Source of the DNA: Candidatus Uhrbacteria bacterium GW2011_GWE2_46_68
Lineage (GTDB): Bacteria > Patescibacteriota > Patescibacteriia > UBA9934 > GWF2-40-263
Reading direction: 5' to 3'
DNA length: 64,000 nt
Assembly: GCA_001002765.1 (NCBI GenBank)
Contig: LCMS01000004.1
Span: 68,775 to 132,774 of the forward strand
Of this stretch, positions 3,643 to 64,000 are shown piece by piece. Each line of letters starts with the position of its first letter. Position 1 is the first letter of the stretch. The position numbers and the translations under genes are program-made. The notes beneath the pieces are model-generated. The model did not search any database. It was not told where the DNA came from and was given only the letters and a program-made list of their open reading frames with translations.

Positions 3643-4476
3643 TTATTCCGAAATTTTTTGTTGCTGATAGGCGGCAAGGACATTGATGAGAAGGAGAGCG
3701 ACGGTCATGGGTCCAACTCCTCCGGGGACAGGGGTCATCCATCCCGCAACTTCGAGGACATCGGGCATCACATCGCCCACAATTTTTTGTTCCACCTTGG
3801 TGGTTCCCACATCAATCACAACAGCTCCTGCTTTGACCATTTCTTTGGTGATGAGGCCTGGGTGACCGACGGCAGAAATAAGAATGTCAGCGGTGATCGT
3901 TTTTTGAGAGAGGTCGGAATCACTAGCGGAGATAACGAAACTTTCTATTCCATAAGTACTGAGAAGATGTGCCAGTGGTTCGCCAAACAGATGGCTTCCG
4001 ATAATTACCGCGTGTTTTTTTGGGAGATCAAGATGTGTAGCTTCGATGAGTTTCAAAATTCCCAAGGCTACAGCCGGAGCGAGGGTGGGTTTCCCTTGGC
4101 GCAAACGTTCCAGATTTTCGGGATGAAAACCATCTACATCTTTTTTGGGATCAATGGCAGTGATGAGCGGATTTGGATTTTGTCCGGGGAGAGGAAGTTG
4201 CACCAAGATACCTGTGATATCAGGACGCGCGTTTAACCGTTGTATACGATCCATGAGTTCTTGCTCACTGACAAAAGTTGGATAGGCAAACAGTTCAAAA
4301 CCAATTCCCACTTCTTGGCATGCCAGTTGTTTGAGGTGCACATAGGTGTGTGACGCCGGATCTGTACCAACTAAAATCACGGCAAGTTTTGGTTGTGTCT
4401 TGCATGATTTTATTTTTTCCATCACACGTTGCCGTTCTTGCTGAGCCAACGATTTTCCGTCAAGGAGTATACCCAT
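3643..4476 (-). CDS. folD: bifunctional methylenetetrahydrofolate dehydrogenase/cyclohydrolase
   Basis: MGILLDGKSLAQQ..., conserved YVHLK and PVPGGVGPMT motifs, 277 aa. Confidence 0.9.
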   Translation of the reverse strand: MGILLDGKSLAQQERQRVMEKIKSCKTQPKLAVILVGTDPASHTYVHLKQLACQEVGIGFELFAYPTFVSEQELMDRIQRLNARPDITGILVQLPLPGQNPNPLITAIDPKKDVDGFHPENLERLRQGKPTLAPAVALGILKLIEATHLDLPKKHAVIIGSHLFGEPLAHLLSTYGIESFVISASDSDLSQKTITADILISAVGHPGLITKEMVKAGAVVIDVGTTKVEQKIVGDVMPDVLEVAGWMTPVPGGVGPMTVALLLINVLAAYQQQKISE

Positions 4477-4532
4477 AAAGTGTGGTCATCATAACATGAC
4501 TTTTCGTTCATCTCAATGAAACAGATTAAATT

Positions 4533-4746
4533 GGTGTCAGGTCGGACTTTGGACTTTTTGTTTCTCAGTAAACAGAAAGAGAGAAAATTATTTCTAAAAA
4601 AAAGAAGGAAGATTCGCACTTTTTTAAATTCCTTTTTTGATTTCAAACATATCAAAATAACCCTTGTACACAAAATATATTTTTCATCAATTGTAGGACA
4701 ATATTTTTTGATTTTTTCAAAAAAGTCCAAAGTCCGACCTGACACC
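4533..4746. repeat. REP-related palindromic element: perfect 27-bp inverted termini (GGTGTCAGGTCGGACTTTGGACTTTTT) around an AT-rich ~160-bp core
   Basis: 4533-4559 is the exact reverse complement of 4720-4746. The terminus core GTCAGGTCG is shared with REPs at 13155, 32719 and 56388/57280. Confidence 0.7.
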
Positions 4747-4784
4747 ATAGCGTGTGACGATGGCCCTCGCAGACACCCACTGGT

Positions 4785-5948: not shown

Positions 5949-7290
5949 TATGTCTCTTTTTCGATCAAGTTTAGAATCTTCTCCGTCTGCTATCCCTGCG
6001 GAGGTAGGGGGCCAACGTACTTCAGCAAACCTAAGCGAGGCCATCATGGATTCGGTTTCAAGTGTCCGTGATTCTTTGCCAAAAGAACACCGCACACACT
6101 TTGAAACTCTGCGACAAGAGATCATTGATTTTACAAAAGCTCATGGGATTCCAAAAGAATCTCTTGGCAGTCCCGACCTCCTGCGCGAGGCTACAAAAAA
6201 ACTTTCTACCCAAGACCTTGAGCGACTTGCTCTCCTTCTTGAACGCTTTGAGCATCTACTTACTCACAAAGAGCCTCGTCGGGAAAAATCGGAAGCGCTT
6301 GAGTATGCCGATGAGTGGTATAACCTTTCCGAACGATACGCGTTTCAAATGAATTTTTTAAAAACACTAGGCATATACTTCCTGCATGAGAGAAACAAGA
6401 CATTCAATGAACGCATAGCAAATTTAAAGAACTTGCTTGGATCCTTATTGCCTTTTGGAAAGAAAAAACGCGAGGTGCCTTCGGCGTCTGAATCCATGGA
6501 AGATTTTTTCCTTTTGGATGTATTGGGAAGAAAGTATTCTGTTCCCACCTTGGAACAAATCGCCGCGCGTCTTTTTGAACGTCGCGAGGAACTTGAAACC
6601 AAACACGATCAAGGTTTTACTCATCTTCTTTTTGTTCCTTTTGCCGTTGAGACTGATCTTTTCATGCTTGCTTTTGGAAAATTTCTTCAAGATCGCGATA
6701 TGGAGAAAACGTTAGTGTCCCCGGTAGCTTATGCAAGTACCACTCGTTCGGTGATGTCACGCTTACGATATTTTCCGCAATCTTTTGACGCGAAAGGAGG
6801 TGATAGAGGTAAAGACAAGATGGACATTTTGAAGGAATTATCTGAACAGGCAAGCTCTTTTCTCGGGTGGAGGATCCTTCTTCTTCAAACTCCTCATGGT
6901 CAAAAAAGAGGATTCCGCGGTATCTCAAAGGATGGAGACCAAAAGAAATCATTCACCCGTCCGGAATTGGAAGTGGGGAAGACGCCTTCGGAATACCTTT
7001 CTCTCCAGAGAGACGAAACATCGCCTTATGATGGAGAATCGAGTATGGTTCTTGAAGATTGGATTTGTGCTTTTATGATTCATTATATGGAAACACGATC
7101 TTGTCTTGACGATATGGAATCCGGGGGAAATGCAGCTTCTTATTTGACAGGAGTATCACTTCCTGGGGATTTTACCGGATCTCAAATGGTGATAGCTGTA
7201 AAGTATGCACACCAAGATATCTTTTTTTATTGCCATTCTCCTCATCACAAAGATGAACAGATTGGTGCGCGTTTTGTCGTAGAGGTTTGA
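5949..7290 (+). CDS. paralog family protein of unknown function (copy 1 of 3 in window)
   Basis: Starts MSLFRSSLESS at ATG 5949, right after the upstream TAA and a GGAGG RBS. Homologous over its full length to 62365..63663 and 63675..>64000 (shared LPKEH..F..LRQEIIDF..HGIP..L..PDLLREA..L...DLERLA.LLE, LLPFGKKKR, DQGFT.LL.VPF, SPY.GE...EDWI.AFM.H, IGARF.V). Confidence 0.6.
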
Positions 7291-13152: not shown

Positions 13153-13205
13153 TAGGGTCAGGTCGTGCTTCGTGCTTTTTATAAAACTATCTGACCCTAT
13201 GACCC
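13153..13205. repeat. REP-like palindromic unit pair (GGGTCAGGTCGTGCTTCGTGC ... CTGACCCTATGACCCC)
   Basis: Intergenic. GGGTCAG/CTGACCC inverted arms. Core identical to the REPs flanking the rayT gene. Confidence 0.6.
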
Positions 13206-25988: not shown

Positions 25989-26354
25989 ATGGAAGAATCC
26001 GCATCGTTTCAATTAGCTAAACAATTTTTGGGAAAAGAGGTAGAGGTTTTGATGGATAGGCCTTTGGGCAGTCTTCACCCAAAATACGGTTTTGTGTATG
26101 AGGCGAACTATGGATATCTTCAGGGGGTAAAGGCTCCGGATGGTGAAGATTTGGATGCGTATTATTTGGGAGTGGACCAACCGATAGAAAAAGGGAAAGG
26201 GATTGTCAGAGCGATCATTCATCGTTTGGAAGATGATGACGATAAACTGGTTGTTTTTCCCGAAGGGGTTACCATGACGGACGAAGAAATAGAAAAAGCG
26301 GTCGCGTTTCAAGAACAATATTTTATACACGAGATTTTAAGAGATCATTCATAA
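25989..26354 (+). CDS. short inorganic pyrophosphatase-like protein
   Basis: YEANYGYLQGVKAPDGEDLDAYYLG resembles the family I PPase core (Y.NYGFIP.T...DGDPLD), but 121 aa is shorter than canonical Ppa. Confidence 0.4.
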   Translation: MEESASFQLAKQFLGKEVEVLMDRPLGSLHPKYGFVYEANYGYLQGVKAPDGEDLDAYYLGVDQPIEKGKGIVRAIIHRLEDDDDKLVVFPEGVTMTDEEIEKAVAFQEQYFIHEILRDHS

Positions 26355-26355
26355 T

Positions 26356-26682
26356 ATGTCCCTTACTCCAGATCAAGAATGCGCGTTGATCGCCGCAGCA
26401 GAGGAAGGCGTGCGACATGCGTATACCGAGCATCAAAGCCCGGATGATTTTCGTATTGGCGCTGCTGTTCTTGCAGAGAAAGGTCATATTTTTTCCTCGG
26501 GTCAATATCGATCGGATAGCGGATCACTCACCCTTCATGCCGAGCAATGTGCGCTTGCCTATGCCTCTGCACATGGAGAATATGGTATCGTTGCGCTTGC
26601 AGTGACGTGGAACGAAAAGGCCGCTTCAAAAAGCGAAGGGGAGTCCATATATCCTTGTCACATGTGTAAGCAACTTTTATGA
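26356..26682 (+). CDS. cytidine/deoxycytidylate deaminase family protein, C-terminally truncated duplicate
   Basis: HAEQCAL...PCHMCKQLL zinc-binding motifs. About 95% nt identity to 27703-28030, but the stop falls right after CKQLL, where the inserted gene begins. Confidence 0.6.
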   Translation: MSLTPDQECALIAAAEEGVRHAYTEHQSPDDFRIGAAVLAEKGHIFSSGQYRSDSGSLTLHAEQCALAYASAHGEYGIVALAVTWNEKAASKSEGESIYPCHMCKQLL

Positions 26683-27659: not shown

Positions 27660-27702
27660 AAAATTTTAAGATGCAGATAAAAATCATAGAGGAATTCATG
27701 AT

Positions 27703-28143
27703 ATGTCTCTTACTTCAGATCAAAAACTCGCACTGATTGCTGCGGCAGAGGAAGGCGTGCGACATGCGTATACCGAGCATCAAAGCCCGGATGATTTTCG
27801 TATTGGCGCTGCTGTTCTTACAGAGAAAGGTCATATTTTTTCCTCGGGTCAATATCGATCGGATAGCGGATCACTCACCCTTCATGCTGAGCAATGTGCG
27901 CTTGCCCATGCCTCTGCACATGGAGAATATGGCATTGTTGCGCTTGCGGTGACGTGGAACGAAAAGGCCGCTTCAAAAAGCGAAGGGGAGTCCATATATC
28001 CCTGTCACATGTGCAAGCAACTTTTGTGGGAAAGTCATTTGCATTCAGGATTGGATATGGAAATTTTGATTGTGGAGAAGGGGGAAGTTCTGGAACAGAT
28101 CCATTTACAAAAACTTGTCGGCGACTACACCTGGCCGAAATAA
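27703..28143 (+). CDS. cdd: cytidine deaminase (full length)
   Basis: 146 aa; H-A-E and PCxxC zinc ligands; full-length copy of the duplicated gene. Confidence 0.7.
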   Translation: MSLTSDQKLALIAAAEEGVRHAYTEHQSPDDFRIGAAVLTEKGHIFSSGQYRSDSGSLTLHAEQCALAHASAHGEYGIVALAVTWNEKAASKSEGESIYPCHMCKQLLWESHLHSGLDMEILIVEKGEVLEQIHLQKLVGDYTWPK

Positions 28144-30541: not shown

Positions 30542-32713
30542 TTATCTTCGTAGTCGCAGCGAATTAAGCACAACGGAGACCGAAGAAAATGCCATGGCTG
30601 CGGAGGCGATGATCGGGGTCAAAAATCCAAGCGCTGCAAAGGGAATCGCCAACACATTATAGAGAAACGCCCAAAAAAGATTTTGTTTGATGATGCGATA
30701 AGTGCGTTGCGCCAGAACGATTGCTTGCGGAACTTTTAAAGGATCGCTTCCGATAATCACCATGTGTCCGGCTTCAAGCGCGATATCGGTTCCACTTCCC
30801 ATGGCGATCCCCAAATCCGCTTGTGTGAGCGCAGGCGCATCATTGATTCCATCTCCCACGAAGGCCACATGTTTTCCCTGTGCCTGCGCTTGCTTTACCA
30901 GATCAAGTTTTTGTTCGGGAAAAACTTGAGCGAAAATATGCGTCATACCCAATGGTTGTGCAATCGCTTCCGCGACTTCTTTTTTGTCGCCTGTCAACAT
31001 AGCTGTCTCGATATGACGCGTGTGTAATTCTTGCACCGTTTTTATCGCGGTGTCCCTGATCTGATCGCGAAGCGCAAAGAGACCGGCAATTTCTTGTTCT
31101 TTTGCAAAAATAAGAACGGTGCATCCTTCTTTGTGCCAGGCGCGTATGGTTTTTTCCAAAGCGGGAAGGATCGGGATTCCCATTTCTTCCATCCATGCGC
31201 GTTGCCCTAAGTGATAGAGATTATTTTGTATATTTCCCTGCACGCCCTTGGCTGTGACAGACAAGAAATGGTCGACAGGAAGCAGTGAAATTTTCTCTTT
31301 TTGTGCATGAGAGGCCAATGCCAAAGAAAGCGGATGAGAGGAGAAATGTGCAAGACTTGCAGCGTGCTGCAGAAGATCAGAGTCAGATCCCCGGAGGGTT
31401 TGCACGTGTACGATTGTGGGTTTTCCTTGGGTAAGTGTGCCCGTTTTATCAAAGAACACTTTTGAAATGTTTCGCGCGCGTTCAAGCGCCTCGCCGCTTT
31501 TGATAAGTATTCCTTGTCGCGCTCCATGTCCGGTTCCAACCAAGATGGCTGTGGGGGTGGCAAGACCCAAGGCACAAGGACAAGCGATAACCAAGACGGC
31601 AATGGCAGGAATCAAAGATGTGGTCACATCTTTTGTGATAAAAAACCAAACAATAAATGTCGAAAACGCAAGACCTAAAACCACGGGGACAAAGACAGCA
31701 GACACACGATCTGCGAGTGCTTGAATGGGCGCGCGTTTCATTTGCGCGTCTTGCATGAGTTTTACAATGCGCGCCATCAGGGTTTCTCCTGCGGGTTTTG
31801 TCACTTCTAAGGTCAGACTTCCGTCTTGATTGATTGTGGATGCAAAAACAGTATCCCCGATCTGTTTTGTTACGGGAATACTTTCGCCAGTGAGAGCAGA
31901 TTCATCCACGTTTGAGACTCCGGATTGCACCACAGCATCGGAAGGAATTTTCTCTCCGGGTTTGACCAACACACGATCTCCCACACGAATTTGTTCGGGT
32001 GGAATATCTCGTGTGCTACCATCCTGTTCAAGTAGATGTGCTTGCTTGGCTCCCAAAGAAAGGAGACCTTGCAAGGCTTCGCCAGCCTTTCCTTTGCTGC
32101 GGGCCTCCAGGGCTTTTCCCAGTAAGATGAAAAAAGTGATGATGGCCGCGGTTTCAAAATAGCGATGTGTCTCCACAAAAACCGCCCACCAACTTGAGAC
32201 AAGAGAAACAAGGGTGCCCAGCGAAATCAGAGCATCCATGCCGGCCGTGAATCGTCGCGCTTGTTGGAAAGCGACTTTATGAAAGATAAATCCCGTTCCA
32301 AGAACCGCAACAGAAGCGAGTATTCCTTCAAACCAAGGAAGGATCATTGAGGGGAGAGGAAGAAACCCCATAGCAGAAAGAAAAACGGGGAGAGCGAGTA
32401 TTCCCGAGAGTAAAGCGCGGCGATCGGCTTGTCTGCGCTCGCGTGCAAACGGGACGGCTCCATGATCATGTCCTTCCATGCCCGTATGTTTTTCTTGCGA
32501 AGCGGAATGAGAAGGAACTTGATATCCTTCTTGCTCGACTATTTTGTGTAATGCATGAATGTCTACGTTATCGTCTGCGTTGACTTGAGCTTGTTGCAAG
32601 GCATAATTTACACGTGCTTCTTTTATACCAGGATGTTTGGAGAGTTGTTGTTGAATGCGCACAGCACAAGAAGCGCAGTGCATACCTTCAATGGGAAAGT
32701 TGTAAGTTTTCAT
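30542..32713 (-). CDS. copA: copper-translocating P-type ATPase
   Basis: N-terminal HMA (GMHCASCAVRI), CPC motif (ACPCALGLATP), DKTGTLT, GDGINDAPAL. Confidence 0.9.
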   Translation of the reverse strand: MKTYNFPIEGMHCASCAVRIQQQLSKHPGIKEARVNYALQQAQVNADDNVDIHALHKIVEQEGYQVPSHSASQEKHTGMEGHDHGAVPFARERRQADRRALLSGILALPVFLSAMGFLPLPSMILPWFEGILASVAVLGTGFIFHKVAFQQARRFTAGMDALISLGTLVSLVSSWWAVFVETHRYFETAAIITFFILLGKALEARSKGKAGEALQGLLSLGAKQAHLLEQDGSTRDIPPEQIRVGDRVLVKPGEKIPSDAVVQSGVSNVDESALTGESIPVTKQIGDTVFASTINQDGSLTLEVTKPAGETLMARIVKLMQDAQMKRAPIQALADRVSAVFVPVVLGLAFSTFIVWFFITKDVTTSLIPAIAVLVIACPCALGLATPTAILVGTGHGARQGILIKSGEALERARNISKVFFDKTGTLTQGKPTIVHVQTLRGSDSDLLQHAASLAHFSSHPLSLALASHAQKEKISLLPVDHFLSVTAKGVQGNIQNNLYHLGQRAWMEEMGIPILPALEKTIRAWHKEGCTVLIFAKEQEIAGLFALRDQIRDTAIKTVQELHTRHIETAMLTGDKKEVAEAIAQPLGMTHIFAQVFPEQKLDLVKQAQAQGKHVAFVGDGINDAPALTQADLGIAMGSGTDIALEAGHMVIIGSDPLKVPQAIVLAQRTYRIIKQNLFWAFLYNVLAIPFAALGFLTPIIASAAMAFSSVSVVLNSLRLRR

Positions 32714-32718
32714 AAAAA

Positions 32719-32740
32719 GGGGTCAGGTCGTGAATCGTAG
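32719..32740 (+). repeat. REP element GGGGTCAGGTCGTGAATCGTAG (identical to rayT left flank)
   Basis: Exact 22-nt match to 56388-56409, in the 37-nt gap between copA and the HMA protein gene. Confidence 0.8.
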
Positions 32741-32750
32741 CGTTTATGTT

Positions 32751-34031
32751 TTAATCTTCGACGATAAGCGTCCCGCGCACCATGCCCATAGAGCAACTAA
32801 AGGTAAATGTTCCGGTACGATCCGGAGTAAAGGTGATAGTGTTTACTCCTTTTTGCAGGGGCATAAAGATATCGAAGGCAGAGAGGATAAGAGAATCTGC
32901 ACACCCTACGCGATCCGCGCGATCAATTTCCCATACCACGGGAATATTTTTTTTCACGGTGAATACATCGGGGTCATAGCTGCCATACGGAGTCACTTTC
33001 ATACGAATGGTTTGTGTCTCTTCCGTTTGTATCGCTGTTGTCGTTTCTCCCCATGTGGGCCAAGCGCTTAGGAGCAATAAACCGTTTTGCGCAGTTTGAA
33101 TGCTCAATGCCAGCGCGATTGCTCCGGCTCCTAACGTTGCCCACACGCGCACACTTCCCTTGATAGAGGTAAAAAAGATCCCAATTCCAAGGAGTGCCGG
33201 AAGCGTTCCCAAGACAAAAAGCCCAAGAGCAAGAGCTGAGAGCCACGGATTCCCAAGTGATAACGCATAGAGCTGCATGGCTTGAGTGAATCCGCAAGGA
33301 AGGAAAAAAGTGAGCGCTCCGGCCATCCATGCTCCTTTTGGATGCCCCAAAGGAAAGAGGCGTTTGATAAACATAGGGAAGGATGCAGGAGTTTTGAGGT
33401 GAAAAGACGGAGGCAACCACTGTACCAAGCGCAAACCGAGAAAGAACAAAAGAATGGCGATTCCAATGAGAAGAAAGCCGTTGATCGTTGGAGAGAGATG
33501 CACGGTAGATCCCAACGTGCCAATCAAAAATCCAAAAAAGACAAAGCTTGTCAGACGGCCTGCATGAAATTTAAGATGGAATTTCCACGGATGATTGAAC
33601 TTTGAGGCGGATCCCATGGCACTCGAGAGACTGGCAAGAATCCCTGCAAGCAAGGCGGAACAGGTGGAGAAAGAAGCGAGGATTCCTATACCAAGAATGC
33701 TTAATAACGGAAGAGTCCGTGATGGATCAAGAGAAGGAGAGGAAGTAAACGGAAGGAGAAACCAAAGAACGATCAAAGCCAGAACAAAAAGAATTCGTTT
33801 TGGCGATACGCGAAATTTTACGGGCGCGTTTGAGAGACGATACCCAAGAGGGGACAAGAGAGATTCAATCTCCTTTGATGTGTACACACGATCTGCTGTG
33901 AGATGAATTTGCTGAGTGTGAAGATTGACCGTAATTTCTTGAACGCTTGAAAGTGCACGCAAGGTTTGCGCGATGGTAATCTCGCAGCTGGAACAATGCA
34001 TGCCTTGGACATGAAAGATTTGTTTGGACAT
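32751..34031 (-). CDS. heavy-metal-associated (HMA) domain membrane protein with C-terminal cupredoxin-like domain
   Basis: N-terminal GMHCSSCEITI HMA motif, ~8 TM helices, C-terminal beta-rich VTPYGSYDPDVFTVKKNIPVVWEI...FSCSMGM cupredoxin-like module. Confidence 0.55.
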   Translation of the reverse strand: MSKQIFHVQGMHCSSCEITIAQTLRALSSVQEITVNLHTQQIHLTADRVYTSKEIESLLSPLGYRLSNAPVKFRVSPKRILFVLALIVLWFLLPFTSSPSLDPSRTLPLLSILGIGILASFSTCSALLAGILASLSSAMGSASKFNHPWKFHLKFHAGRLTSFVFFGFLIGTLGSTVHLSPTINGFLLIGIAILLFFLGLRLVQWLPPSFHLKTPASFPMFIKRLFPLGHPKGAWMAGALTFFLPCGFTQAMQLYALSLGNPWLSALALGLFVLGTLPALLGIGIFFTSIKGSVRVWATLGAGAIALALSIQTAQNGLLLLSAWPTWGETTTAIQTEETQTIRMKVTPYGSYDPDVFTVKKNIPVVWEIDRADRVGCADSLILSAFDIFMPLQKGVNTITFTPDRTGTFTFSCSMGMVRGTLIVED

Positions 34032-34493
34032 AAAAATGAATAGAAAAAAATAAAGATGCGCCCTTTTTTCTATTCACGTTTTTGAATCGCTAAATGACGA
34101 GAGAGAGTTGAAAGTGGCGGGGGGACGGCATCGGTAAAAAGAGGATCGAGCAAAGGAAGAAACGCATGGTGGAATACGACAGAAAATATCGAAGTTCTTT
34201 GGAAGAGGTGGAGGAGGACATCCGCTTGAGGAGGATTTTGATAGTCTTGAGAAAGACAATGAAAGAGACAATTCGTCGCCGGAGAAGGAGGTGGAGGGGT
34301 GTTTGATGTTTGGTGGCAAGAAGAAATGGGAGGAGGGGTTTGTGTATCTGCCGGGGCAGAGGCGGGAATCACTAAAAACCATCCTGCAAGATGCAGAGTA
34401 AAAGCCAAACAAAGAATCCAAGAGGTGTGGCGCATAAACAGAATTATATCGCAGAGAACGGTGAATGAAAAACGGAGCGTAAGTTTTGCTCTA

Positions 34494-34672
34494 TAGTCCT
34501 CACATCATGAAACAGGATTTATCCATCCAGAGGGATGGCGGTCTGCTTGTCTTTCGCGTAGAAAAATTCTCAATGTATCTACGGATACATCTGCGGTTTT
34601 TCTACGCTCCAAGACGGCGCATCCCATCCATTCCTCTGGCGTCTAAAGTCCCGTTTCATAATGTGAGGACTA
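34494..34672. repeat. 179-nt rod-like palindromic element (20-bp terminal inverted repeat, nested 11-bp inverted repeat, multiple complementary internal segments)
   Basis: TAGTCCTCACATCATGAAAC (34494-34513) vs GTTTCATAATGTGAGGACTA (34653-34672), 19/20 complementary. GCGTAGAAAAA (34556-34566) vs TTTTTCTACGC (34597-34607). GGGATGGCGGTCTGCTTG on the left pairs with CAAGACGGCGCATCCC on the right. Confidence 0.6.
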
Positions 34673-34709
34673 TGGAATTATTCCTCCCAGTTCGCTATGC
34701 TGGCAGCGT

Positions 34710-45597: not shown

Positions 45598-45739
45598 AGG
45601 GGATATTGTTAAGGACGGGTTGATTGTAACATGACCATTGGTGCCTTGCACGGCATAGATTTCTTTGTTATGCTTTTGCCACGTTCTTTGGAAAAAAGAA
45701 TTATTCCGGGGTAGCTCAGTGGTTAGAGCGGCTGGCTGT

Positions 45740-46318
45740 GGCACACGCTTATAGGTATTATAGAATTCTATGGAATCCAACAAGCGATCCTATGCCCGAC
45801 GCGCGGAATATCTCAAAAAAGCAGTTGTACGCAGAAGGCGTGAAGTTCGAGAGAAGGCGATTGCTCACTTAGGTGGTCAATGTCAGATATGTGGTTATAA
45901 ACGTTGTGAGCAGGCTCTCGATTTTCATCACCGCAACCATAAGGAAAAAACATTCGGCATTTCCCAAAAAGGATATACAAGATCTTGGGAAAGAGTAAAA
46001 GAAGAACTAAAAGGTTGTGTCTTTCTTTGTGCAAATTGTCATCGAGAAATTCACGCAGGGTATACGCAGCTTCTGACAGAGATGTCAGAATGATCATAGG
46101 GTGAACTTCTGGAAGCCTACATCCGAAAGGATATGGTAATCAGAAGCCAAGCCCCACGAAGTTTAAGACAAGTGGGGAAGGTTCAGAGACTATCCGTTAT
46201 GACCCTCAAAAGAGAGGGGAGGAGTACCTCGCCAAAAGGCGGGGGAAGCGCCCTACATCCTCGCAATATGCAGGATGATGATATAGTCCACCCCTTTGGG
46301 AAACCAAAGGATGATGTG
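45740..46318 (+). ncRNA. group I self-splicing intron in tRNA-Asn anticodon loop (between nt 36 and 37)
   Basis: Catalytic-core element R (GTTCAGAGACTATCC, 46181-46195) and element S (GATATAGTCC, 46280-46289) form P7. 5' splice after U, terminal omega-G at 46318. Contains an HNH ORF. Confidence 0.7.
45770..46093 (+). CDS. HNH homing endonuclease (intron-encoded)
   Basis: CQICGYKRCEQALDFHHRNHKEK...CVFLCANCHREIHAG carries the HNH/zinc-finger motif. Located inside the intron 5' region. Confidence 0.75.
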   Translation: MESNKRSYARRAEYLKKAVVRRRREVREKAIAHLGGQCQICGYKRCEQALDFHHRNHKEKTFGISQKGYTRSWERVKEELKGCVFLCANCHREIHAGYTQLLTEMSE

Positions 46319-46382
46319 TAACCAGTAGGTCGTGGGTTCAAGTCCCACCCCCGGAGCCACAAAGATCCCTAGCAATTTGCTA

Positions 46383-46465
46383 GGGATTTTTGTTATCCGT
46401 GATAGAATGATCGTGAAGTTTCCGTGTGTACAAACAGAAAAGTCCGATGTCCGGACTTGACCCTG
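46383..46465 (+). repeat. 83-bp direct repeat copy A (T-tract + extended -10 promoter TGATAGAAT + 5'UTR with REP-like core)
   Basis: Identical over ~74 nt to 47925-48008. Preceded by hairpin CCCTAGCAA-tt-TGCTAGGG at 46367-46385. Contains GTCCGGACTTGACCC, related to REP rc CGACCTGACCC. Confidence 0.8.
46400..46408 (+). promoter_or_regulatory. extended -10 promoter box TGATAGAAT (within repeat A)
   Basis: TGnTAnAAT extended -10. The same 21-nt box T(T/G)TCCGTGATAGAATGA(T/C)CGT also occurs at 47942 and 49483. Confidence 0.5.
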
Positions 46466-47838: not shown

Positions 47839-47924
47839 AGTCAAATGAAAAAAATTTAGCGCTCGAATGGCTGTTTTTGAATGACTCATAACAGGGAATC
47901 GGCAAAATTCTTCAGCGAAGGCTG

Positions 47925-48008
47925 GGGATTTTTGTTATCCGTGATAGAATGATCGTGAAGTTTCCGTGTGTACAAACAGAAAAGTCCGATGTCCGGACCT
48001 GACCCTGT
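47925..48008 (+). repeat. 83-bp direct repeat copy B (T-tract + extended -10 promoter + 5'UTR)
   Basis: Identical to 46383-46465 except 1-2 nt. Preceded by hairpin CAGC-gaag-GCTG. Promoter box TGATAGAAT at 47942-47950. Confidence 0.8.
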
Positions 48009-49371: not shown

Positions 49372-49482
49372 TGAATTGTATGAAAAAATATTTTTTAGCA
49401 CTCCCGAGTCACTGTTTTCAAATCACTTGCGATGTGGGTCCAGGAAAATTTTTCAGATTCGTCTGGAGATTTTCATTGTCCG

Positions 49483-49491
49483 TGATAGAAT
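49483..49491 (+). promoter_or_regulatory. extended -10 promoter box TGATAGAAT (third copy of conserved 21-nt box)
   Basis: TTGTCCGTGATAGAATGACCGT, preceded by a small hairpin plus T-tract, 30 nt upstream of the 49522 start. Confidence 0.45.
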
Positions 49492-49521
49492 GACCGTAAG
49501 TATTTTTAACCCATTTTTCCT

Positions 49522-55860: not shown

Positions 55861-56388
55861 ATGGAAGGTGCAGAGCGACATCAAGAGGTCACAGAACGTG
55901 AATCTGTGCAGGAGAAAACAGTAGCCGCTATTTTATCAACGGCTGTTTTTGAACATGATGAGAATAATCCGCGTATATTTCGTGTGCATCTTGCATATGG
56001 AAGCAAGCGACTTGATTGTTATGTGCTTAAAGACACAAAAGTGGCCGGAGCCATGATCGAAAGCGAACAAACGAAAGAAAAAAAAGAGGGAGAAACCTCT
56101 CTTCTTTACCGTGCGTTGTATCATGTATTGCGTGGGGTGGCGAATCGTCTGGGAGAAGCTTTATCCTATACGTTTGTCACGGAAAATGAAAAATTGATTG
56201 CTTGGGCAAACACGCACGGGAATGAAATTTTTCACTGGAAAAAAACAACGGTGGATCACGAAAGCTCGCTTGGATCTTTCTCTTGTGAGATTTTTCCAAC
56301 AGTGTCAAAAAGAAAGGCTCAACAACGAAAAACACATCAGAAGACAGAAATTCTTTTATGGGAAGTGCGAGAATATTTTCCTGGCTAG
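55861..56388 (+). CDS. hypothetical protein
   Basis: 175-aa ORF; its stop overlaps the left REP of the REPtron. Confidence 0.35.
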   Translation: MEGAERHQEVTERESVQEKTVAAILSTAVFEHDENNPRIFRVHLAYGSKRLDCYVLKDTKVAGAMIESEQTKEKKEGETSLLYRALYHVLRGVANRLGEALSYTFVTENEKLIAWANTHGNEIFHWKKTTVDHESSLGSFSCEIFPTVSKRKAQQRKTHQKTEILLWEVREYFPG

Positions 56389-57301
56389 GGGGTCAGGTCG
56401 TGAATCGTAGTGTTCAACATTTATTTTTCTATGACAAGACCACTTCGCATTGAATATCCTGGAGCATTTTATCACATCATCTCCCGCGGAAACGCGCATC
56501 AAGATATTTATCTTGACAATAAAGATCGACAAAATTTTTTAATGAATCTTCAGCATTGCCTCCGGTCGCACTCTCTCCGATGTCATGCTTATTGTTTGAT
56601 GAACAATCACTATCATTTACTTTTAGAAACGCCTAGAGGGAATTTATCTCAAGCCATGCGTGACATCAACGGTCTCTACACTCAAAAATTTAACAAGAGA
56701 CATAAACGTATTGGCCATGTTCTTCAAGGGCGTTACAAAGCTTTCCTTGTTGAAAAGGACGCTTATCTTTTACAAATTGCTCGTTATATTGTCCTCAATC
56801 CACTAAAAGCCGGTATAGTCAATCATCCAAAAAAATGGAGGTGGAGCAGCTATTCCATTACAGCTGGTCTTAGAGAGTCTCCAACTTGGTTTGACTCAAG
56901 TGTTATTCTTGCTCTTTTTACATCAAATAAAAAAAGAGCACAAAAGTACTATCGTCGATTTGTATATGAAGGTGAAAATGAACCTTTTCTTTACGAGAAA
57001 GGAAAGGGGGGTGTGATTTTGGGTAGCCAAGAATTTGCAGATCAGATTCGGAGAGAGTTTAAAAATAAGAAAAGTTCAAAAGAAGTTGTCATTTCTGAAA
57101 GAGTGATCAGTCGTCCAAGTTTAGAAGATTTATTTTTTCAGATAGATAATCAAGAAGAACGGAACAAGATGATAAAATTAGCTAGAATAAAAGCCTTTTA
57201 TTCCGTTACAGAAATCGCGAATCATTTAGGTTTACACAGAACAACCGTCAGTAAAATTTTTAACGATAAAACATGAATGCTACGATTCACGACCTGACCC
57301 C
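56388..57301 (+). mobile_element. REPtron: IS200-like Y1 (RayT-like) transposase gene flanked by inverted 22-bp REPs
   Basis: Left GGGGTCAGGTCGTGAATCGTAG (56388-56409) and right CTACGATTCACGACCTGACCCC (57280-57301) are perfect reverse complements. The same REP occurs at 32719 and relatives at 13155, 4533/4720 and 46451/47991. Confidence 0.8.
56431..57276 (+). CDS. rayT: REP-associated tyrosine transposase (IS200/IS605-like Y1 HUH transposase)
   Basis: YHIISRGN...HAYCLMNNHYHLLLETP (HuH) and RYKAFL (catalytic Tyr region) match the Y1_Tnp (PF01797) pattern. ATG 56431 chosen over the GTG at 56410. Confidence 0.8.
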   Translation: MTRPLRIEYPGAFYHIISRGNAHQDIYLDNKDRQNFLMNLQHCLRSHSLRCHAYCLMNNHYHLLLETPRGNLSQAMRDINGLYTQKFNKRHKRIGHVLQGRYKAFLVEKDAYLLQIARYIVLNPLKAGIVNHPKKWRWSSYSITAGLRESPTWFDSSVILALFTSNKKRAQKYYRRFVYEGENEPFLYEKGKGGVILGSQEFADQIRREFKNKKSSKEVVISERVISRPSLEDLFFQIDNQEERNKMIKLARIKAFYSVTEIANHLGLHRTTVSKIFNDKT

Positions 57302-57306
57302 TTTTT

Positions 57307-58689
57307 ATGTCTAAACTTTTTCCTCCTCCGTTATCACTTCGCAAACTCATTGGCCCTAGTTTTTTGATTCTCGCGCTCGGGCTTGGATCGGGCGAAGTGA
57401 TCCTCTGGCCTTATCTTGCCTCCAACTATGGGCTGGGCATCGCTTGGGGGGCGCTCATCGGCATCACGTTTCAGTATTTCATCAATATGGAAATCGAACG
57501 CTATGCGCTTGTGAAAGGCGAAAGCGTGTTTGTGGGATTTACAAAAAAATGGAGCTGGACACCCTATTGGTTCATTCTTTCCACTTTTGTTGGATTTGGA
57601 TTGCCGGGGATTATCGCCGCTTCGGCAAAGGTGTTCAGTGCGATGGTCGGGGTTGAAGATTTTCGTTTCATCGCCATTCTTTTTCTCCTCTTGATCGGTT
57701 TCATTTTGAGCGCGGGTAAAACCGTGTACGGACTTATGGAACGGCTCACAAAGATCGTTATTCTTTGCGGTGTCCCATTTATTTTTTTATTGGCGATCGT
57801 GTTGAGCGATCCACAGGATTGGTTCATCCTTGGAAGAGGAATTTTGGGAATAGGGGAGGGATATCGTTTTCTTCCGGAAGGAATTATTCTCGCCACCTTC
57901 TTTGGGGCGTTTGCTTATTCCGGTGCGGGTGGAAATCTTAATCTCACCCAATCCATCTACGTAAAAGAAGAAGGCTATGGCATGGGGAAGTATGCGCAAA
58001 AAATTTCCGGACTTTTCAAACACCAGACAGTGCAAGAAATGAAACTGGAAGGAGAGACCTTTCCAATGAATGCCGAAGCAAAGAAAAATTTTTTCGGATG
58101 GTGGAGAAAAATTTCCCTAGAACATGCATTGGTGTTTTGGTTTGTGGGAGCACTCTCAATTTTTCTTCTCATGCTCCTTTCTTTCGTGACCTCGTTTGGT
58201 AATCCGGAAAATGCACAAGGGATCAGTTTTGTGATCACCGAAGGAGCTGCCATTGGAAGCCGAATTTTTCCCTGGGTCGGCACACTCTTCCTTCTGGTCG
58301 TTTCTATCATGCTCTTTCAGACTCAACTGGGAGTGATGGATTCCACTTCTCGTATTATGGCCGAGAATGCGGCGCTTCTCATCATGAAACATAAGCGCAC
58401 ACAGACAATCGCTCTTTCTAAAATCTATTTTTCATTTCTGTGGGCGCAAATAGCTTTTGGTATTTTGCTTTTCCTTCTGGGTATTTCCGAACCTAAAACC
58501 TTGATTGTGCTTGGTGCTTGTCTCAATGCCGTTGCCATGTTTGTCCATGTGGGACTTGTTCAAGTGCTTAATCATCATGCGCTTCCTAAAGTTTTTCGTC
58601 CTCGTGTGTGGAGAAAAATACTCTTGGCCGGCATTTTTCTTTTTTTTGGCGTCTTCAGCGCAATCGTTTTTATCGATCAGCTGTTCTAG
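57307..58689 (+). CDS. mntH: Nramp family divalent metal cation transporter
   Basis: N-terminal LGPSFLILALGLGSGEVILWPYLASNYGLGIAWGAL is the Nramp signature region; 11-12 TM. Confidence 0.75.
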   Translation: MSKLFPPPLSLRKLIGPSFLILALGLGSGEVILWPYLASNYGLGIAWGALIGITFQYFINMEIERYALVKGESVFVGFTKKWSWTPYWFILSTFVGFGLPGIIAASAKVFSAMVGVEDFRFIAILFLLLIGFILSAGKTVYGLMERLTKIVILCGVPFIFLLAIVLSDPQDWFILGRGILGIGEGYRFLPEGIILATFFGAFAYSGAGGNLNLTQSIYVKEEGYGMGKYAQKISGLFKHQTVQEMKLEGETFPMNAEAKKNFFGWWRKISLEHALVFWFVGALSIFLLMLLSFVTSFGNPENAQGISFVITEGAAIGSRIFPWVGTLFLLVVSIMLFQTQLGVMDSTSRIMAENAALLIMKHKRTQTIALSKIYFSFLWAQIAFGILLFLLGISEPKTLIVLGACLNAVAMFVHVGLVQVLNHHALPKVFRPRVWRKILLAGIFLFFGVFSAIVFIDQLF

Positions 58690-62364: not shown

Positions 62365-63663
62365 ATGGCTTCTTTTTCACGATCCTCTCTTCCCGAGCCT
62401 TATCGTGATCAATTTGATTTTCTTCGTCAGGAGATCATTGATTTTGCAGCATCTCACGGGATTCCAAGAGAGGCGCTTGCCAAACCCGATCTTCTCCGCG
62501 AGGCTGCAAACAAACTCCCCACCCCAGACCTCGAGCGACTAGCTGTTCTTCTTGAGCGTTTTAAACACCTCATCGTTCATCGTGAACCCTACAGAGAAAC
62601 ACAGGCTGAAATTTTGGAATACGCGGAAACATTTTATAACTTGAGAGAACAATACACACTCCAATGTGATTTGTTCAAACGTCTGAAGCTTTTACAGGTA
62701 GGGTATTTGTCAGAACCTGTAGACACGGAGCGCACACAAGGATTGTCCGCTCTTTTTCGCTCCCTGTTGCCTTTTGGGAAAAAGAAAAGGGTGCGCAAAG
62801 AGCCTCCAAAAAAAGGCAAAGAATTTTTCTTTGTCTACGGAATAGATGGAAAACAATATACGTTTCCCACCTTGGAAGAAGTGGCGGAGCGTCTTTATCG
62901 TCAACAAGAACGTTTGCATATCAAGCGCGATCAAGGTTTTACCAAACTCCTCCTTGTTCCTTTTGGCATGAGACTTGAAGATTTATTCTCTATTTATTTC
63001 AGAAAATTTTTAACCGGGTATCAAGAGGCTCATCCGAATTTCGGTCTCAAAGGAGATGGACTTATGAGCGGATATGACGATTTTGTCCATGTGGACAGAG
63101 GAAGTAATCCCCGTCTTTTTTATTACCCAAGGTTTTTTCGAGAAACGGATCATCAAGGAAAAACAAAACCTCAGATTTTAAGAGAACGAGTAGCACAAGG
63201 TGTCTCTTGTCCCGGATGGAATATCAGTCTTTTTCAACCGCTTGAACCTGATGACCTTTACTCCAAAGGGTTTGCTTCCATTAGCAGGCATGATTATACC
63301 CAAGGCAAAGAGTGCCTCCGTCCTTGTTTAAGCGTCGGTCGTCCTCCACACGAATATCTTTCCTTGCTCGAAGATGCTAAAGCAAATCCTGATTCTCCTT
63401 ATCATGGCGAAACGGGGATGACTCCCGAAGATTGGATAACCGCTTTTATGGTGCACCTTGAAGAAACAGGAAGACCACTTGATGATTTTCTAGGTCCTGG
63501 GGAATCTGAAGCTTATCTTTTGGGTTCCTTTTTTCCGGCGAATTATTGTTTTATGCCTTATGCGCGTTGGGATAACCATTTCGGCAAACCGGGAATGTCG
63601 AAGGGGACTATGCCCGCTGAATCATATGAAAATATAGGCGCTCGTTTTTTAGTGCAGATTTGA
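62365..63663 (+). CDS. paralog family protein of unknown function (copy 2)
   Basis: Start MASFSRSS (internal ATG). Homologous throughout to 5949..7290. Confidence 0.6.
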   Translation: MASFSRSSLPEPYRDQFDFLRQEIIDFAASHGIPREALAKPDLLREAANKLPTPDLERLAVLLERFKHLIVHREPYRETQAEILEYAETFYNLREQYTLQCDLFKRLKLLQVGYLSEPVDTERTQGLSALFRSLLPFGKKKRVRKEPPKKGKEFFFVYGIDGKQYTFPTLEEVAERLYRQQERLHIKRDQGFTKLLLVPFGMRLEDLFSIYFRKFLTGYQEAHPNFGLKGDGLMSGYDDFVHVDRGSNPRLFYYPRFFRETDHQGKTKPQILRERVAQGVSCPGWNISLFQPLEPDDLYSKGFASISRHDYTQGKECLRPCLSVGRPPHEYLSLLEDAKANPDSPYHGETGMTPEDWITAFMVHLEETGRPLDDFLGPGESEAYLLGSFFPANYCFMPYARWDNHFGKPGMSKGTMPAESYENIGARFLVQI

Positions 63664-63674: not shown

Positions 63675-64000
63675 ATGTCTTCTTTTTCTCGCTCATCTCC
63701 CGAATCCGTCCCATCTATTACTTTTCACGAAGCCACCCCCACGGAGGTGGGGGTCCAACGTACTTCGGAAATCTTAAATGAAGCCATCCTCTCTTCAGTT
63801 TCAAGTGTCCGTGATTCTTTGCCCAAAGAACATCATGGGCACTTTGACACTCTCCGACAAGAGATTATTGATTTTACAAAAGCTCATGGGATTTCCAAAG
63901 ATGCACTTTCCAATCCCAGCCTCCTTCGTGAGGTGACCGACAAACTCTCCATCCCAGACCTCGAACGACTCGCTCTCCTTCTCGAGCACTTTGAGTATTT
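63675..64000 (+). CDS. paralog family protein of unknown function (copy 3, partial at window end)
   Basis: MSSFSRSSPESVPS...VSSVRDSLPKEHHGHFDTLRQEIIDFTKAHGI. The 5' region is ~85% nt-identical to 5949-6200. Confidence 0.55.
   Translation, partial: MSSFSRSSPESVPSITFHEATPTEVGVQRTSEILNEAILSSVSSVRDSLPKEHHGHFDTLRQEIIDFTKAHGISKDALSNPSLLREVTDKLSIPDLERLALLLEHFEY

What the first reader, a model, noticed from the sequence alone, without database searches (positions are those of the whole stretch)
56388..57301. REPtron: RayT-like HUH transposase bracketed by inverted REPs; same REP family dispersed across the window
The Y1/HUH transposase (HYHLL motif) is flanked by perfect inverted 22-bp copies of GGGGTCAGGTCGTGAATCGTAG. 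An identical unit sits between copA and the HMA gene (32719-32740). Diverged relatives occur at 13153-13205, at 4533/4720 as a 27-bp inverted pair, and inside the duplicated promoter repeats at ~46451 and ~47991. This is the REP/RayT architecture, in which the transposase is thought to mobilise the short palindromic repeats. It gives this genome's REP consensus directly.
Basis: seen in the sequence. Interest (0 to 1): 0.7.

Follow-up and report, generated by a model that had tools for sequence, protein, structure and literature searches.

The report
TIRtron: tyrosine transposase with inverted ends
A RayT-like single-strand DNA transposase gene in a Candidatus Uhrbacteria genome is bracketed by perfect 22-bp inverted repeats that are not hairpin REPs, which makes it a member of the already described but untested "TIRtron" class rather than a REPtron.

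Summary
GGGGTCAGGTCGTGAATCGTAG lies at 56389-56410 (+), 57280-57301 (-) and 32719-32740 (+), with 0 matches expected by chance. It brackets an intact 281-aa Y1/HUH gene (56431-57276).

The REPtron reading is only partly right. The 22-mer does not fold (-0.5 kcal/mol), so it is a terminal inverted repeat, not a REP. The protein carries the motifs of TnpA-Y1 subclass 2.1 (NHYH, YIVLNP, WSS, C-terminal HTH). The repeat begins with the published TIRYT signature GGGGWSAS. The element is therefore a TIRtron (Di Nocera 2013; Quentin 2018).

Additional results:
- Among 97 homologous genes from other organisms, 88 have the core GGGTCAGGTC upstream and 77 have it inverted downstream.
- The inner, variable half of the repeat co-varies with the C-terminal HTH domain (r 0.56, against 0.35 for the catalytic domain). 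This suggests recognition by two domains.
- A sister genome with the same gene order lacks the gene but keeps the right-end unit, with the 22-mer identical at 22 of 22 bases.
- Eight core-bearing copies, in four subfamilies, lie in intergenic DNA of the window.

It is a new member of a known kind. Transposition has not been shown.

The parts
56389..56410 (+). Left terminal inverted repeat (TIR-L). It has an outer invariant core, GGGGTCAGGTC, and an inner variable part, GTGAATCGTAG. It starts directly after the TAG stop of the upstream 175-aa ORF and ends 20 nt before the ATG.
   Evidence: Exact match; inverted pair I3; no self-hairpin.
56431..57276 (+). TIRYT gene, 281 aa. The N-terminal Y1/HUH nuclease domain carries H60-Y-H62 and the catalytic Y119 in YIVLNP, then W138-S-S. 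A variable middle region follows, then a C-terminal three-helix HTH at about residues 241-278.
   Evidence: Pfam and NCBIfam hits; alignments A1/A2; AF2 pLDDT 84.5; Foldseek best hit 4er8_A.
57280..57301 (-). Right terminal inverted repeat (TIR-R), 22/22 complementary to TIR-L. It starts 3 nt after the TGA stop, and its outer end lies 5 nt before the ATG of the Nramp-like gene (57307).
32714..32750 (-). Solo right-end unit. It comprises the exact 22-mer (32719-32740) plus inner bases that resemble the TIRYT 3' end, and the same outer TTTTT-ATG. The right-end-like similarity runs 32711-32753, overlapping the stop codon of the upstream gene. The unit fills the 37-nt gap between the HMA-DsbD-cupredoxin gene and the CopA-type ATPase gene.
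   Evidence: 43 nt, 95% identical to 57267-57309 (I1); flanking genes from Pfam.
4532..4747 (.). Gene-less TIR pair of subfamily C. Two 28-bp perfect inverted repeats, TGGTGTCAGGTCGGACTTTGGACTTTTT, are separated by 160 nt. The pair lies between divergent genes (3643-4476 on the minus strand, 4785-5948 on the plus strand).
   Evidence: (I4). It is also present in other assemblies of the organism.
13153..13199 (+). Subfamily B copy, TAGGGTCAGGTCGTGCTTCGTGCTTTTT, with a 9-nt inverted core fragment CTGACCCTA 30 nt away. It looks like a collapsed pair and lies between convergent genes.
   Evidence: fold -10.2 kcal/mol, z -2.8.
46437..46463 (-). Subfamily D copy, GGGTCAAGTCCGGACATCGGACTTTTC, inside a duplicated promoter-like repeat upstream of the RibD_C-domain gene.
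   Evidence: (D4).
47979..48005 (-). Second subfamily D copy, GGGTCAGGTCCGGACATCGGACTTTTC, in the second copy of the 94-nt repeat.
   Evidence: (D4).

Best explanation
Positions 56389-57301 are a TIRtron. A single-copy gene for a TIR-associated tyrosine (Y1/HUH) transposase sits between 22-bp terminal inverted repeats. The protein corresponds to TIRYT, to TnpA-Y1 subclass 2.1 with a C-terminal HTH, and by Quentin's published mapping to Bertels RAYT group 1. The host is a Candidatus Uhrbacteria (CPR/Patescibacteria) genome.

**Shown**
- The enzyme has the TnpA-REP/IS200 fold with intact HUH and Tyr residues.
- Each repeat has two parts: an outer 10-11 nt core (G)GGGTCAGGTC that is nearly constant across the family in many phyla, and an inner part of about 11-16 nt that is specific to each element and matches between the two ends.
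- The inner part co-varies with the HTH domain, not with the catalytic or middle domain.
- The gene is present or absent at one and the same locus in close relatives, while the right-end unit stays.
- Solo, paired and collapsed repeats lie in intergenic DNA.

**Inferred mechanism**
- The HTH reads the inner half of the repeat as duplex DNA.
- The conserved HUH/Tyr domain recognises and cuts at the invariant core.
- On single-stranded DNA (for example the lagging-strand template) the two inverted ends, or two closely spaced inverted copies, can pair into a stem. This would play the role that the REP/REPIN hairpin plays for RayT.
- Cleavage and rejoining at the foot of that stem would excise or copy the unit. 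This would leave solo ends and gene-less pairs.
- In most family members the inner half of the left repeat coincides with a -35-like hexamer (TTGAAT, TTGAAA or TTGCAA) 35 nt before the ATG. Binding there would also auto-regulate the gene.

The confidence given (0.8) is for the classification as a TIRtron/TIRYT. The inferred mechanism is less certain, at about 0.4.
For: **Protein**
- Pfam Y1_Tnp 2.3e-11 and NCBIfam REP_Tyr_transpos 84.7 bits against a cut-off of 80.
- H60, H62, Y119, N123 and W138 are invariant; S139 and S140 are at least 90% conserved.
- The motifs match Quentin Table 1 for subclass 2.1: NH[YF]H, Y[IV]xLNP, SS.
- AF2 pLDDT 84.5. Foldseek best hit is 4er8_A (E 2.1e-7, TMt 0.79), followed by ISDra2 and IS608 TnpA.

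**Repeats**
- Exact 22-bp inverted copies that do not fold on their own.
- GGGGTCAG fits the published GGGGWSAS.
- 88 of 97 homologous genes have the core upstream, most often 35 nt before the ATG. 77 of 97 have it inverted downstream. The two arms of one element are usually identical over 20-28 nt, while elements differ from each other.
- The variant GGGGTCAGGTCGTGAATCGTGAA flanks homologues in a Gammaproteobacteria MAG (L035) and in L081. It occurs at least 32 times in one Acidobacteriota MAG, largely as hairpin-forming inverted pairs (one folded example -42.8 kcal/mol).

**Co-variation (80 elements)**
- Correlation of inner-repeat distance with protein distance: HTH 0.557, catalytic 0.347, middle 0.357. 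The middle domain is equally divergent (mean p-distance 0.61 against 0.62).
- Partial r(HTH | catalytic) is 0.472, permutation p 0.001. The reverse partial is 0.087.
- Control DNA next to the ATG or outside the core shows no HTH-specific signal.

**Polymorphism**
- L208/L209 have flanks 84-85% identical in DNA and an Nramp protein 93% identical, with the same gene order. They lack the gene but keep GAATAAAATAGAAACG + CTACGATTCACGACCTGACCCC, the 22-mer at 22/22.
Against: - No transposition, binding or cleavage has been shown for any member of this class, here or in the literature I could search.
- Only one extra exact copy of the 22-mer was found in about 79 kb of the organism.
- The direction of the presence/absence difference (gene deleted or gene inserted) is unresolved. 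The outgroups had different neighbours.
- The co-variation test is not corrected for phylogeny. Partial Mantel tests are liberal.
- A strand-specific ssDNA nuclease would see different sequences at the two ends unless they pair. That pairing is inferred only.
- The simple sigma-70 scan found no good promoter between TIR-L and the ATG in this copy. The spacing here is 31 nt, not 35.
Confidence: 0.8

Rival explanations
1. A classical REPtron. A RayT gene is flanked by REP hairpins that it mobilises, and the 22-mer is this genome's REP.
For: - NCBIfam REP_Tyr_transpos passes its cut-off narrowly, 84.7 against 80.
- The best structural match is E. coli TnpA-REP.
- The flanking copies are inverted, and related copies are intergenic.
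- The 22-mer contains GTAG.
Against: - The 22-mer and its flanks form no significant hairpin (-0.5 to -3.4 kcal/mol, z between -0.2 and -1.8).
- GTAG sits at the inner end of an unstructured repeat, not 5' of a palindrome.
- The protein has the subclass 2.1 motifs and an HTH tail. That subclass was reported to lack REPs.
- Sequence similarity to 4er8 is negligible (E 0.61).
- The core is shared across phyla rather than being genome-specific.
Confidence: 0.06
2. An autonomous insertion sequence of the IS200/IS605 superfamily that moves as a whole unit (gene plus both ends). On this view it is not a single-copy helper of short repeats, and the solo ends are decay products only.
For: - The whole gene is present or absent at one locus between close relatives.
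- The ORF is intact and the ends are perfect.
- Bertels et al. found group 1 RAYTs the most IS-like of the RAYT groups, with 6.3% duplicates and some on plasmids.
- Solo units retain about 16 nt that resemble the gene's 3' end.
Against: - There is one gene copy in about 79 kb.
- Homologues keep the same neighbours across independent assemblies.
- The Y motif is Y-x-x-x-N-P, not the Y-x-x-x-Q of IS200. There are no subterminal hairpins and no tnpB.
- In other genomes the repeats greatly outnumber the genes, with at least 32 copies in one Acidobacteriota MAG and no gene nearby.
Confidence: 0.12
3. A domesticated DNA-binding protein whose repeats are operators. The HTH binds the repeats to regulate its own gene and neighbouring genes, and no DNA is moved any longer.
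For: - The HTH co-varies with the inner repeat.
- The left repeat overlaps a -35-like hexamer at a fixed distance from the ATG in most homologues.
- Both outer ends of the exact family lie 5 nt upstream of the ATG of a metal transporter, CopA and the Nramp-like gene.
- RAYTs in general behave like vertically inherited host genes.
Against: - The HUH histidines and the catalytic Tyr are invariant across 46-47 homologues, which argues for retained nuclease activity.
- Gene-less pairs, collapsed pairs and dozens of hairpin doublets in other genomes look like products of DNA processing.
- The sister genome keeps the repeat upstream of the Nramp gene without the adjacent gene.
Confidence: 0.1

Closest known systems
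TIRtron / TIRYT (TIR-associated tyrosine transposase), Di Nocera, De Gregorio and Rocco 2013, BMC Genomics 14:522 (PMC3733652)
   Same: - A RayT-like Y1 gene flanked by terminal inverted repeats instead of REPs.
- The repeats begin with GGGGWSAS (here GGGGTCAG) and lie at similar distances from the coding sequence.
- The repeats also occur elsewhere as singles, dimers or groups.
- The HUH motif and catalytic Tyr are conserved.
   Different: - The 2013 set was 26 examples, mainly from cultured Proteobacteria, Acidobacteria and similar groups. This one is in a CPR (Uhrbacteria) genome.
- The family is now seen to be very large, with 4904 hits at E<=1e-10.
- Here the conserved motif extends to 10-11 nt.
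- The two-part structure and its co-variation with the HTH are not in the texts I could read. Their Figure 9 was not available to me.
TnpA-Y1 subclass 2.1 (subgroup 2.1.2), Quentin, Siguier, Chandler and Fichant 2018, BMC Genomics 19:475 (PMC6006769); mapped there to Bertels RAYT group 1 (PMC5581495)
   Same: - Key motifs NH[YF]H, Y[IV]xLNP and the SS tail motif.
- A long protein with a C-terminal HTH-like domain.
- No REP nearby and a low copy number.
- A patchy, wide taxonomic spread.
   Different: - Quentin et al. doubted that the C-terminal domain recognises the repeats, because GGGGWSAS is unlike a DnaA box. The co-variation found here points to the inner half of the repeat, not the GGGG core, as the part the HTH follows.
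- In this protein the 'FQ' position reads LQ.
REPtron: RayT/TnpA-REP with REP/BIME/REPIN (Nunvar 2010; Ton-Hoang 2012; Messing 2012, PDB 4er8; Bertels and Rainey 2011)
   Same: - The same fold and catalytic residues.
- A single gene bracketed by inverted copies of a short repeat that is also dispersed in intergenic DNA.
- In other genomes the TIR occurs as hairpin-forming doublets like REPINs.
   Different: - The individual repeat is not a palindrome.
- It has no GTAG-tagged hairpin.
- The protein has an extra HTH domain.
- The outer repeat core is shared across phyla instead of being lineage-specific.
IS200/IS605 TnpA (IS608, ISDra2)
   Same: The HUH/Y1 fold (Foldseek E about 1e-4). By analogy, ssDNA cleavage and joining chemistry.
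   Different: - No subterminal hairpins and no tnpB.
- The Y motif ends in NP, not Q.
- The protein is twice as long.
- The ends are inverted repeats.

Membership tests
TIRtron / TIRYT (Di Nocera 2013) | Y1 transposase with a conserved HUH motif and catalytic tyrosine | tested here: met
   H60-Y-H62 and Y119 are invariant in A1/A2. The fold matches 4er8.
TIRtron / TIRYT (Di Nocera 2013) | Gene flanked by terminal inverted repeats that are not REP hairpins | tested here: met
   22/22 inverted copies. MFE -0.5 kcal/mol, z -0.6.
TIRtron / TIRYT (Di Nocera 2013) | TIR carries the GGGGWSAS motif | tested here: met
   GGGGTCAG at the outer end of both repeats.
TIRtron / TIRYT (Di Nocera 2013) | TIR copies elsewhere in the genome as singles, dimers or groups (present in some members only) | tested here: inconclusive
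   One exact solo copy, plus five copies of three other subfamilies, in 64 kb. None in a further 14.7 kb. The whole genome was not available.
TnpA-Y1 subclass 2.1 (Quentin 2018) | Motifs NH[YF]H, FQ or W[EQ], Y[IV]xLNP, SS | tested here: met
   NHYH, YIVLNP and W138-S139-S140 are present. The FQ position is LQ here and FQ in most homologues.
TnpA-Y1 subclass 2.1 (Quentin 2018) | C-terminal HTH-like domain (Bac_DnaA_C, HTH_23 or HTH_28) | tested here: inconclusive
   Only sub-threshold Pfam HTH hits at residues 248-281 (E about 0.007). AF2 predicts three helices at 241-278 with pLDDT of about 80-90. Some homologues carry a precomputed PF13384 (HTH_23) hit.
REPtron / RAYT (Nunvar 2010; Ton-Hoang 2012) | Flanking repeats are REPs, meaning imperfect palindromes that form a hairpin, typically with a GTAG tag at the 5' foot | tested here: not met
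   No hairpin in the 22-mer or in 51-56 nt contexts.
REPtron / RAYT (Nunvar 2010; Ton-Hoang 2012) | The same REP is present at high copy number in the genome | not testable with these tools
   The source genome was not recovered by the truncated scan. Only about 79 kb was seen.
REPtron / RAYT (NCBIfam NF047646 REP_Tyr_transpos) | Score above the curated cut-off | tested here: met
   84.7 bits against 80. This is marginal, and the model evidently also covers TIRYTs.
IS200/IS605 | Y-x-x-x-Q tyrosine motif, subterminal hairpins, often tnpB | tested here: not met
   The motif is YIVLNP. No hairpins. The neighbours are a 175-aa ORF and an Nramp-like gene.

The most novel reading that the evidence does not exclude
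TIRYT ends may be two-part recognition sites read by two domains. A 10-11 nt outer core (GGGGTCAGGTC) is kept almost unchanged across thousands of elements in unrelated phyla and would be read by the conserved HUH/Tyr domain. An inner, element-specific half would be read by the fast-evolving C-terminal HTH. If so, the HTH sets which ends an enzyme acts on, and several subfamilies could coexist in one genome without cross-talk. Four subfamilies occur in this 64-kb window. This would answer the question Quentin et al. left open about what the DnaA-like tail does. It would also give a simple, testable specificity code for an uncharacterised class of ssDNA enzymes.
Probability: 0.4. Interest if true: 0.55.

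Novelty: new member of a known kind. Interest (0 to 1): 0.38.

Why it matters
- TIRYT/subclass 2.1 is the largest RayT-like group. I found no experimental work on it in the library searched.
- This locus shows that the class extends into the small genomes of CPR bacteria.
- It offers a clean natural comparison: full element against right-end-only at the same site in two close relatives.
- Together with 97 homologous loci, it gives a concrete hypothesis for how the ends are recognised (core plus an HTH-specified inner half).
- For annotation, the gene is mislabelled in public records as a RelE-family toxin, and the repeats should not be called REPs.
- The near-invariance of an 11-nt DNA motif across phyla is a useful search handle for finding these elements.

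Tried and rejected
- **Tandem-heptamer idea.** Several repeats look like core plus two co-varying 7-mers (GTGAATC GTGAAT; GGACTTT GGACTTT; CCGGCTT CCGGCTT). Period 7 is the strongest period. However, within-element identity (0.43 and 0.46) exceeds the between-element control (0.41 and 0.43) by only 1.8-1.9 sd. It mostly reflects the family consensus TTGAATT TTGACAT. I kept it as a weak observation only.
- **Rfam.** Nothing at any repeat copy. The only hits were a tRNA and a group I intron elsewhere.
- **Literature search for the sequence itself.** Only chance primer matches.
- **PDB search by sequence.** 4er8 only at E 0.61. Fold comparison was needed.
- **Sigma-70 and terminator scan of 56250-57400.** No promoter between TIR-L and the ATG, and no terminator.
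- **Outgroups to polarise the gene presence/absence.** L210-L212 have different upstream genes and no repeat, so they are uninformative.
- **Extending the window.** 10 kb to the left and 4.7 kb to the right gave no further core copies.
- **First structure job.** It ran after I removed that row.
Full report
**1. The observation**

The 22-mer GGGGTCAGGTCGTGAATCGTAG occurs exactly three times in the window: 56389-56410 (+), 57280-57301 (-) and 32719-32740 (+). None of 100 dinucleotide-preserving shuffles gave a match, even with three mismatches allowed. The two flanking copies extend as an imperfect 36-nt inverted repeat (86%, I3).

Between them lies one ORF. Its mechanical start is GTG 56410. 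Homologue N-termini (M-A/T-R-P-L-R-I/V-E-Y-P-G) place the real start at ATG 56431, which gives 281 aa ending at 57276.

The 'diverged relatives' exist but share only the core GGGTCAGGTC:
- 13155-13164;
- a 28-bp perfect inverted pair at 4532-4559/4720-4747 with a 160-nt spacer;
- two minus-strand copies at 46454-46463 and 47996-48005, inside a 94-nt direct repeat.

The core with up to one mismatch is found 9 times against 2.15 expected. Eight of the nine are intergenic, counting the 4534/4736 pair by the ORF table; the crude ATG-only ORF map labelled that pair genic. About 89% of the window is coding by that crude map.

**2. The protein**

- Pfam gives Y1_Tnp (2.3e-11). NCBIfam gives REP_Tyr_transpos at 84.7 bits, just over its cut-off of 80.
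- In alignments of 46-47 homologues (47-62% identical), H60, H62 (N-H-Y-H-L-L), Y119 (A-R-Y-I-V-L-N-P), N123 and W138 are invariant. S139 and S140 are at least 90% conserved.
- An AlphaFold2 model (pLDDT 84.5) matches E. coli TnpA-REP bound to a REP hairpin best (4er8_A, E 2.1e-7, TM 0.79 on the target). ISDra2, IS608 and IS200 transposases follow.
- By sequence alone 4er8 is barely detectable (E 0.61).
- The last roughly 45 residues form three helices, with only sub-threshold Pfam HTH hits.
- The closest database entry is 100% identical, from a Candidatus Uhrbacteria (CPR) MAG, and is labelled a RelE-family toxin. Nothing here supports that label.
- The family is very large, with 4904 proteins at E<=1e-10.

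**3. The repeats are not REPs**

Folded as single-stranded DNA, the 22-mer gives -0.5 kcal/mol (z -0.6; 45 of 200 shuffles fold as well). Contexts of 51-56 nt around the three exact copies give z between -0.2 and -1.4. A REP is by definition an imperfect palindrome, and this sequence is not one.

**4. What is already known**

Quentin et al. 2018 (PMC6006769) divide Y1 proteins into classes. Their subclass 2.1 has:
- the motifs NH[YF]H, FQ or W[EQ], Y[IV]xLNP and an SS tail motif;
- a C-terminal Bac_DnaA_C/HTH_23/HTH_28-like domain;
- no REPs nearby.

By their mapping it equals RAYT group 1 of Bertels et al. 2017. They equate it with the TIRYTs of Di Nocera et al. 2013 (PMC3733652). Those are RayT-like genes flanked by terminal inverted repeats ('TIRtrons'), many sharing GGGGWSAS, with repeat copies sometimes dispersed as singles, dimers or groups.

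The window's protein has NHYH, YIVLNP, WSS and the HTH tail, and its repeat begins GGGGTCAG. The element is therefore a TIRtron. I found no later or experimental work on this class.

**5. Comparison with other loci**

A scan of one genome per species for GGGTCAGGTCGTGNNTCGT was truncated and contained much chance matching in GC-rich coding DNA. It still showed the nearly identical GGGGTCAGGTCGTGAATCGTGAA in several places:
- flanking, in inverted orientation, a 48%-identical homologue in a Gammaproteobacteria MAG (L035) and a 47%-identical one in L081;
- singly in Patescibacteria, Uhrbacteria and Opitutaceae MAGs;
- at least 32 times in one Acidobacteriota MAG, largely as inverted pairs. The one folded (L053) forms a strong hairpin of -42.8 kcal/mol, z -13.5.

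I then fetched loci for homologues through exact-protein look-ups and a metagenome scan.
- Of 97 genes, 88 have GGGTCA[AG][AG][TC]C upstream and 77 have it inverted downstream. Several of the rest have flanks that are too short.
- The core ends most often 35 nt before the ATG, and mostly 31-45 nt.
- The consensus is GGGGTCAGGTC-TTGAATTTTGACATTT.
- The core is near-invariant. This is partly by construction of the search pattern, but the hit rate and fixed position are not by construction.
- The next 12-16 nt differ between elements yet match between the two ends of one element.
- The hexamer just after the core is usually TTGAAT, TTGAAA or TTGCAA. With the 35-nt spacing this fits a -35 element of the gene's own promoter and a leaderless or near-leaderless mRNA. 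This is an inference.
- In the window's copy the spacing is 31 nt, and the simple scan finds no promoter there.

**6. Co-variation with the HTH**

For 80 distinct elements I compared pairwise distances of the 14 nt after the core with protein distances by domain.

| Protein region | Correlation with inner-repeat distance |
|---|---|
| HTH (residues 236-278) | 0.557 |
| Catalytic domain (1-145) | 0.347 |
| Middle region (146-235) | 0.357 |

- The middle region is equally divergent (mean p-distance 0.61 against 0.62), so divergence alone does not explain the difference.
- The partial correlation with the HTH given the catalytic domain is 0.472 (permutation p 0.001). The reverse partial is 0.087 (p 0.06).
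- Control DNA shows no HTH-specific signal. The 14 nt before the ATG give 0.20-0.27 for all domains. The 14 nt outside the core give 0.03-0.14.
- Recognition-helix types track the inner halves. For example, H-Y-T-T-V-S-K goes with TTGAAAT or TTGAATT, H-Y-A-T-V-S-R with TTGCAAT, and (H/D)-R-(T/S)-T-V-S-K with GTGAATC.
- The test is not corrected for phylogeny, so I treat it as suggestive.
- It bears on Quentin's remark that the tail may not recognise the repeats. The part that follows the HTH is the inner half, not the GGGG core.

**7. Presence/absence at the same site**

A close relative (L208/L209, GCA_900218215.1) has the same gene order: 150-aa ORF, 175-aa ORF, Nramp-like gene, DUF1003 and so on. 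Its Nramp-like protein is 93% identical and its flanks are 84-85% identical in DNA.

It has no TIRYT gene. Between the TAG of the 175-aa ORF and the ATG of the transporter it has TAAGA-GAATAAAATAGAAACG-CTACGATTCACGACCTGACCCC plus 25 nt. The 22-mer is identical at 22 of 22 bases. At 85% flank identity and independent sites, that would be expected about 3% of the time.

The bases just inside the repeat resemble the 3' end of the TIRYT gene (GATAAAACATGAATG). So do those of the solo copy at 32719, read on the minus strand (GATTAAAACATAAACG). That copy also shares the outer TTTTT-ATG with the window's right end (43 nt, 95%, I1).

The solo copies are therefore right-end units. They are either what remains after loss of the left end and gene, or sites beside which the gene-bearing part inserts. 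Outgroups did not settle the direction.

The solo unit at 32714-32750 fills the gap between an HMA-DsbD-cupredoxin gene and a CopA-type ATPase gene.

**8. Mechanism**

- Shown: an intact HUH/Tyr enzyme of the TnpA-REP fold; two-part inverted ends; HTH-inner-half co-variation; gene gain or loss at a fixed site with end retention; solo, paired and collapsed copies in intergenic DNA.
- Inferred: the HTH binds the inner half as duplex DNA, and the HUH domain acts at the conserved core. On single-stranded DNA the two ends, or a closely spaced doublet, pair to form the stem that a REP or REPIN hairpin provides for RayT. Cutting and rejoining at the foot of the stem moves or deletes the unit. Binding at the left end also represses the gene's own promoter.
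- Not shown: any transposition, binding or cleavage.

**9. Rivals**

- A true REPtron is contradicted by the folding result and by the subclass assignment.
- A whole-element IS remains possible, given the presence/absence at one site. However, the gene is single-copy here, it lacks IS200 hallmarks, and in other genomes it is far outnumbered by its repeats.
- A purely regulatory, immobile protein is possible but fits poorly with the invariant catalytic residues.

**10. Verdict**

The element is a new member, in CPR bacteria, of a known but uncharacterised kind (TIRtron/TIRYT).

The extra value lies in three things: the extended cross-phylum core, the HTH-repeat co-variation, and the natural full-element versus solo-end pair. 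Interest is moderate.

Noticed in passing
window 45705-46357: A tRNA gene appears to be split by a group I intron. The 5' half, TCCGGGGTAGCTCAGTGGTTAGAGCGGCTGG, starts at 45705. The Rfam Intron_gpI hit covers 45999-46310 (87.6 bits). The 3' half, CCAGTAGGTCGTGGGTTCAAGTCCCACCCCCGGAGCCA, ends near 46357. In-silico splicing yields a tRNA for 345 of 550 boundary choices. The identity is ambiguous, His(GTG) or Thr(TGT).
   Followed up: partly
window 46362-46414, 47904-47956, 49445-49497: A promoter-like repeat (GTGATAGAAT, an extended -10 look-alike) occurs three times at a spacing of about 1.54 kb, upstream of consecutive genes. The first two copies continue into a 94-nt repeat that carries a subfamily D TIR in the predicted 5' UTR (D4 and D5).
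   Followed up: partly
window 26347-26646 and 27694-27993: A 300-nt direct repeat, 94% identical, with 1347 nt from start to start (D1).
   Followed up: no
window 34490-34538 / 34628-34676: A 49-nt imperfect inverted repeat (78%) with 89 nt between the arms. It lies between the copper-related gene cluster and the gene starting at 34710 and could be a regulatory site (I2).
   Followed up: no
window 5989-6255 vs 63732-63998 and 62410-62570: Gene-internal direct repeats at 77-80% identity, indicating paralogous genes at both ends of the window (D2, D3, D11, D13).
   Followed up: no
window 32714-32718 and 57302-57306: The outer ends of the two right-end-type copies of the exact 22-mer (TIR-R and the solo copy) each lie 5 nt (TTTTT) upstream of the ATG of a metal transporter gene: the CopA-type ATPase and the Nramp-like gene. 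No Shine-Dalgarno sequence lies between. The outer end of TIR-L instead abuts the stop codon of the upstream ORF. I did not test whether the metal-transporter placement is coincidence.
   Followed up: partly
P0001 (the window protein in public records): One public source names this protein 'Toxin-antitoxin system, toxin component, RelE family'. Pfam, NCBIfam and the fold all say Y1/HUH transposase, so the name is an annotation error.
   Followed up: yes
L053, L019, L030, L038, L040, L078, L091, L095, L099, L104 (Acidobacteriota MAG MFD04850.bin.2.120): At least 32 copies of GGGGTCAGGTCGTGAATCGTGAA, largely as head-to-head pairs. The one pair I folded (L053) forms a strong hairpin of -42.8 kcal/mol. 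No TIRYT gene lies in the 8-kb pieces fetched. This is a REPIN-like population built from TIRs.
   Followed up: partly
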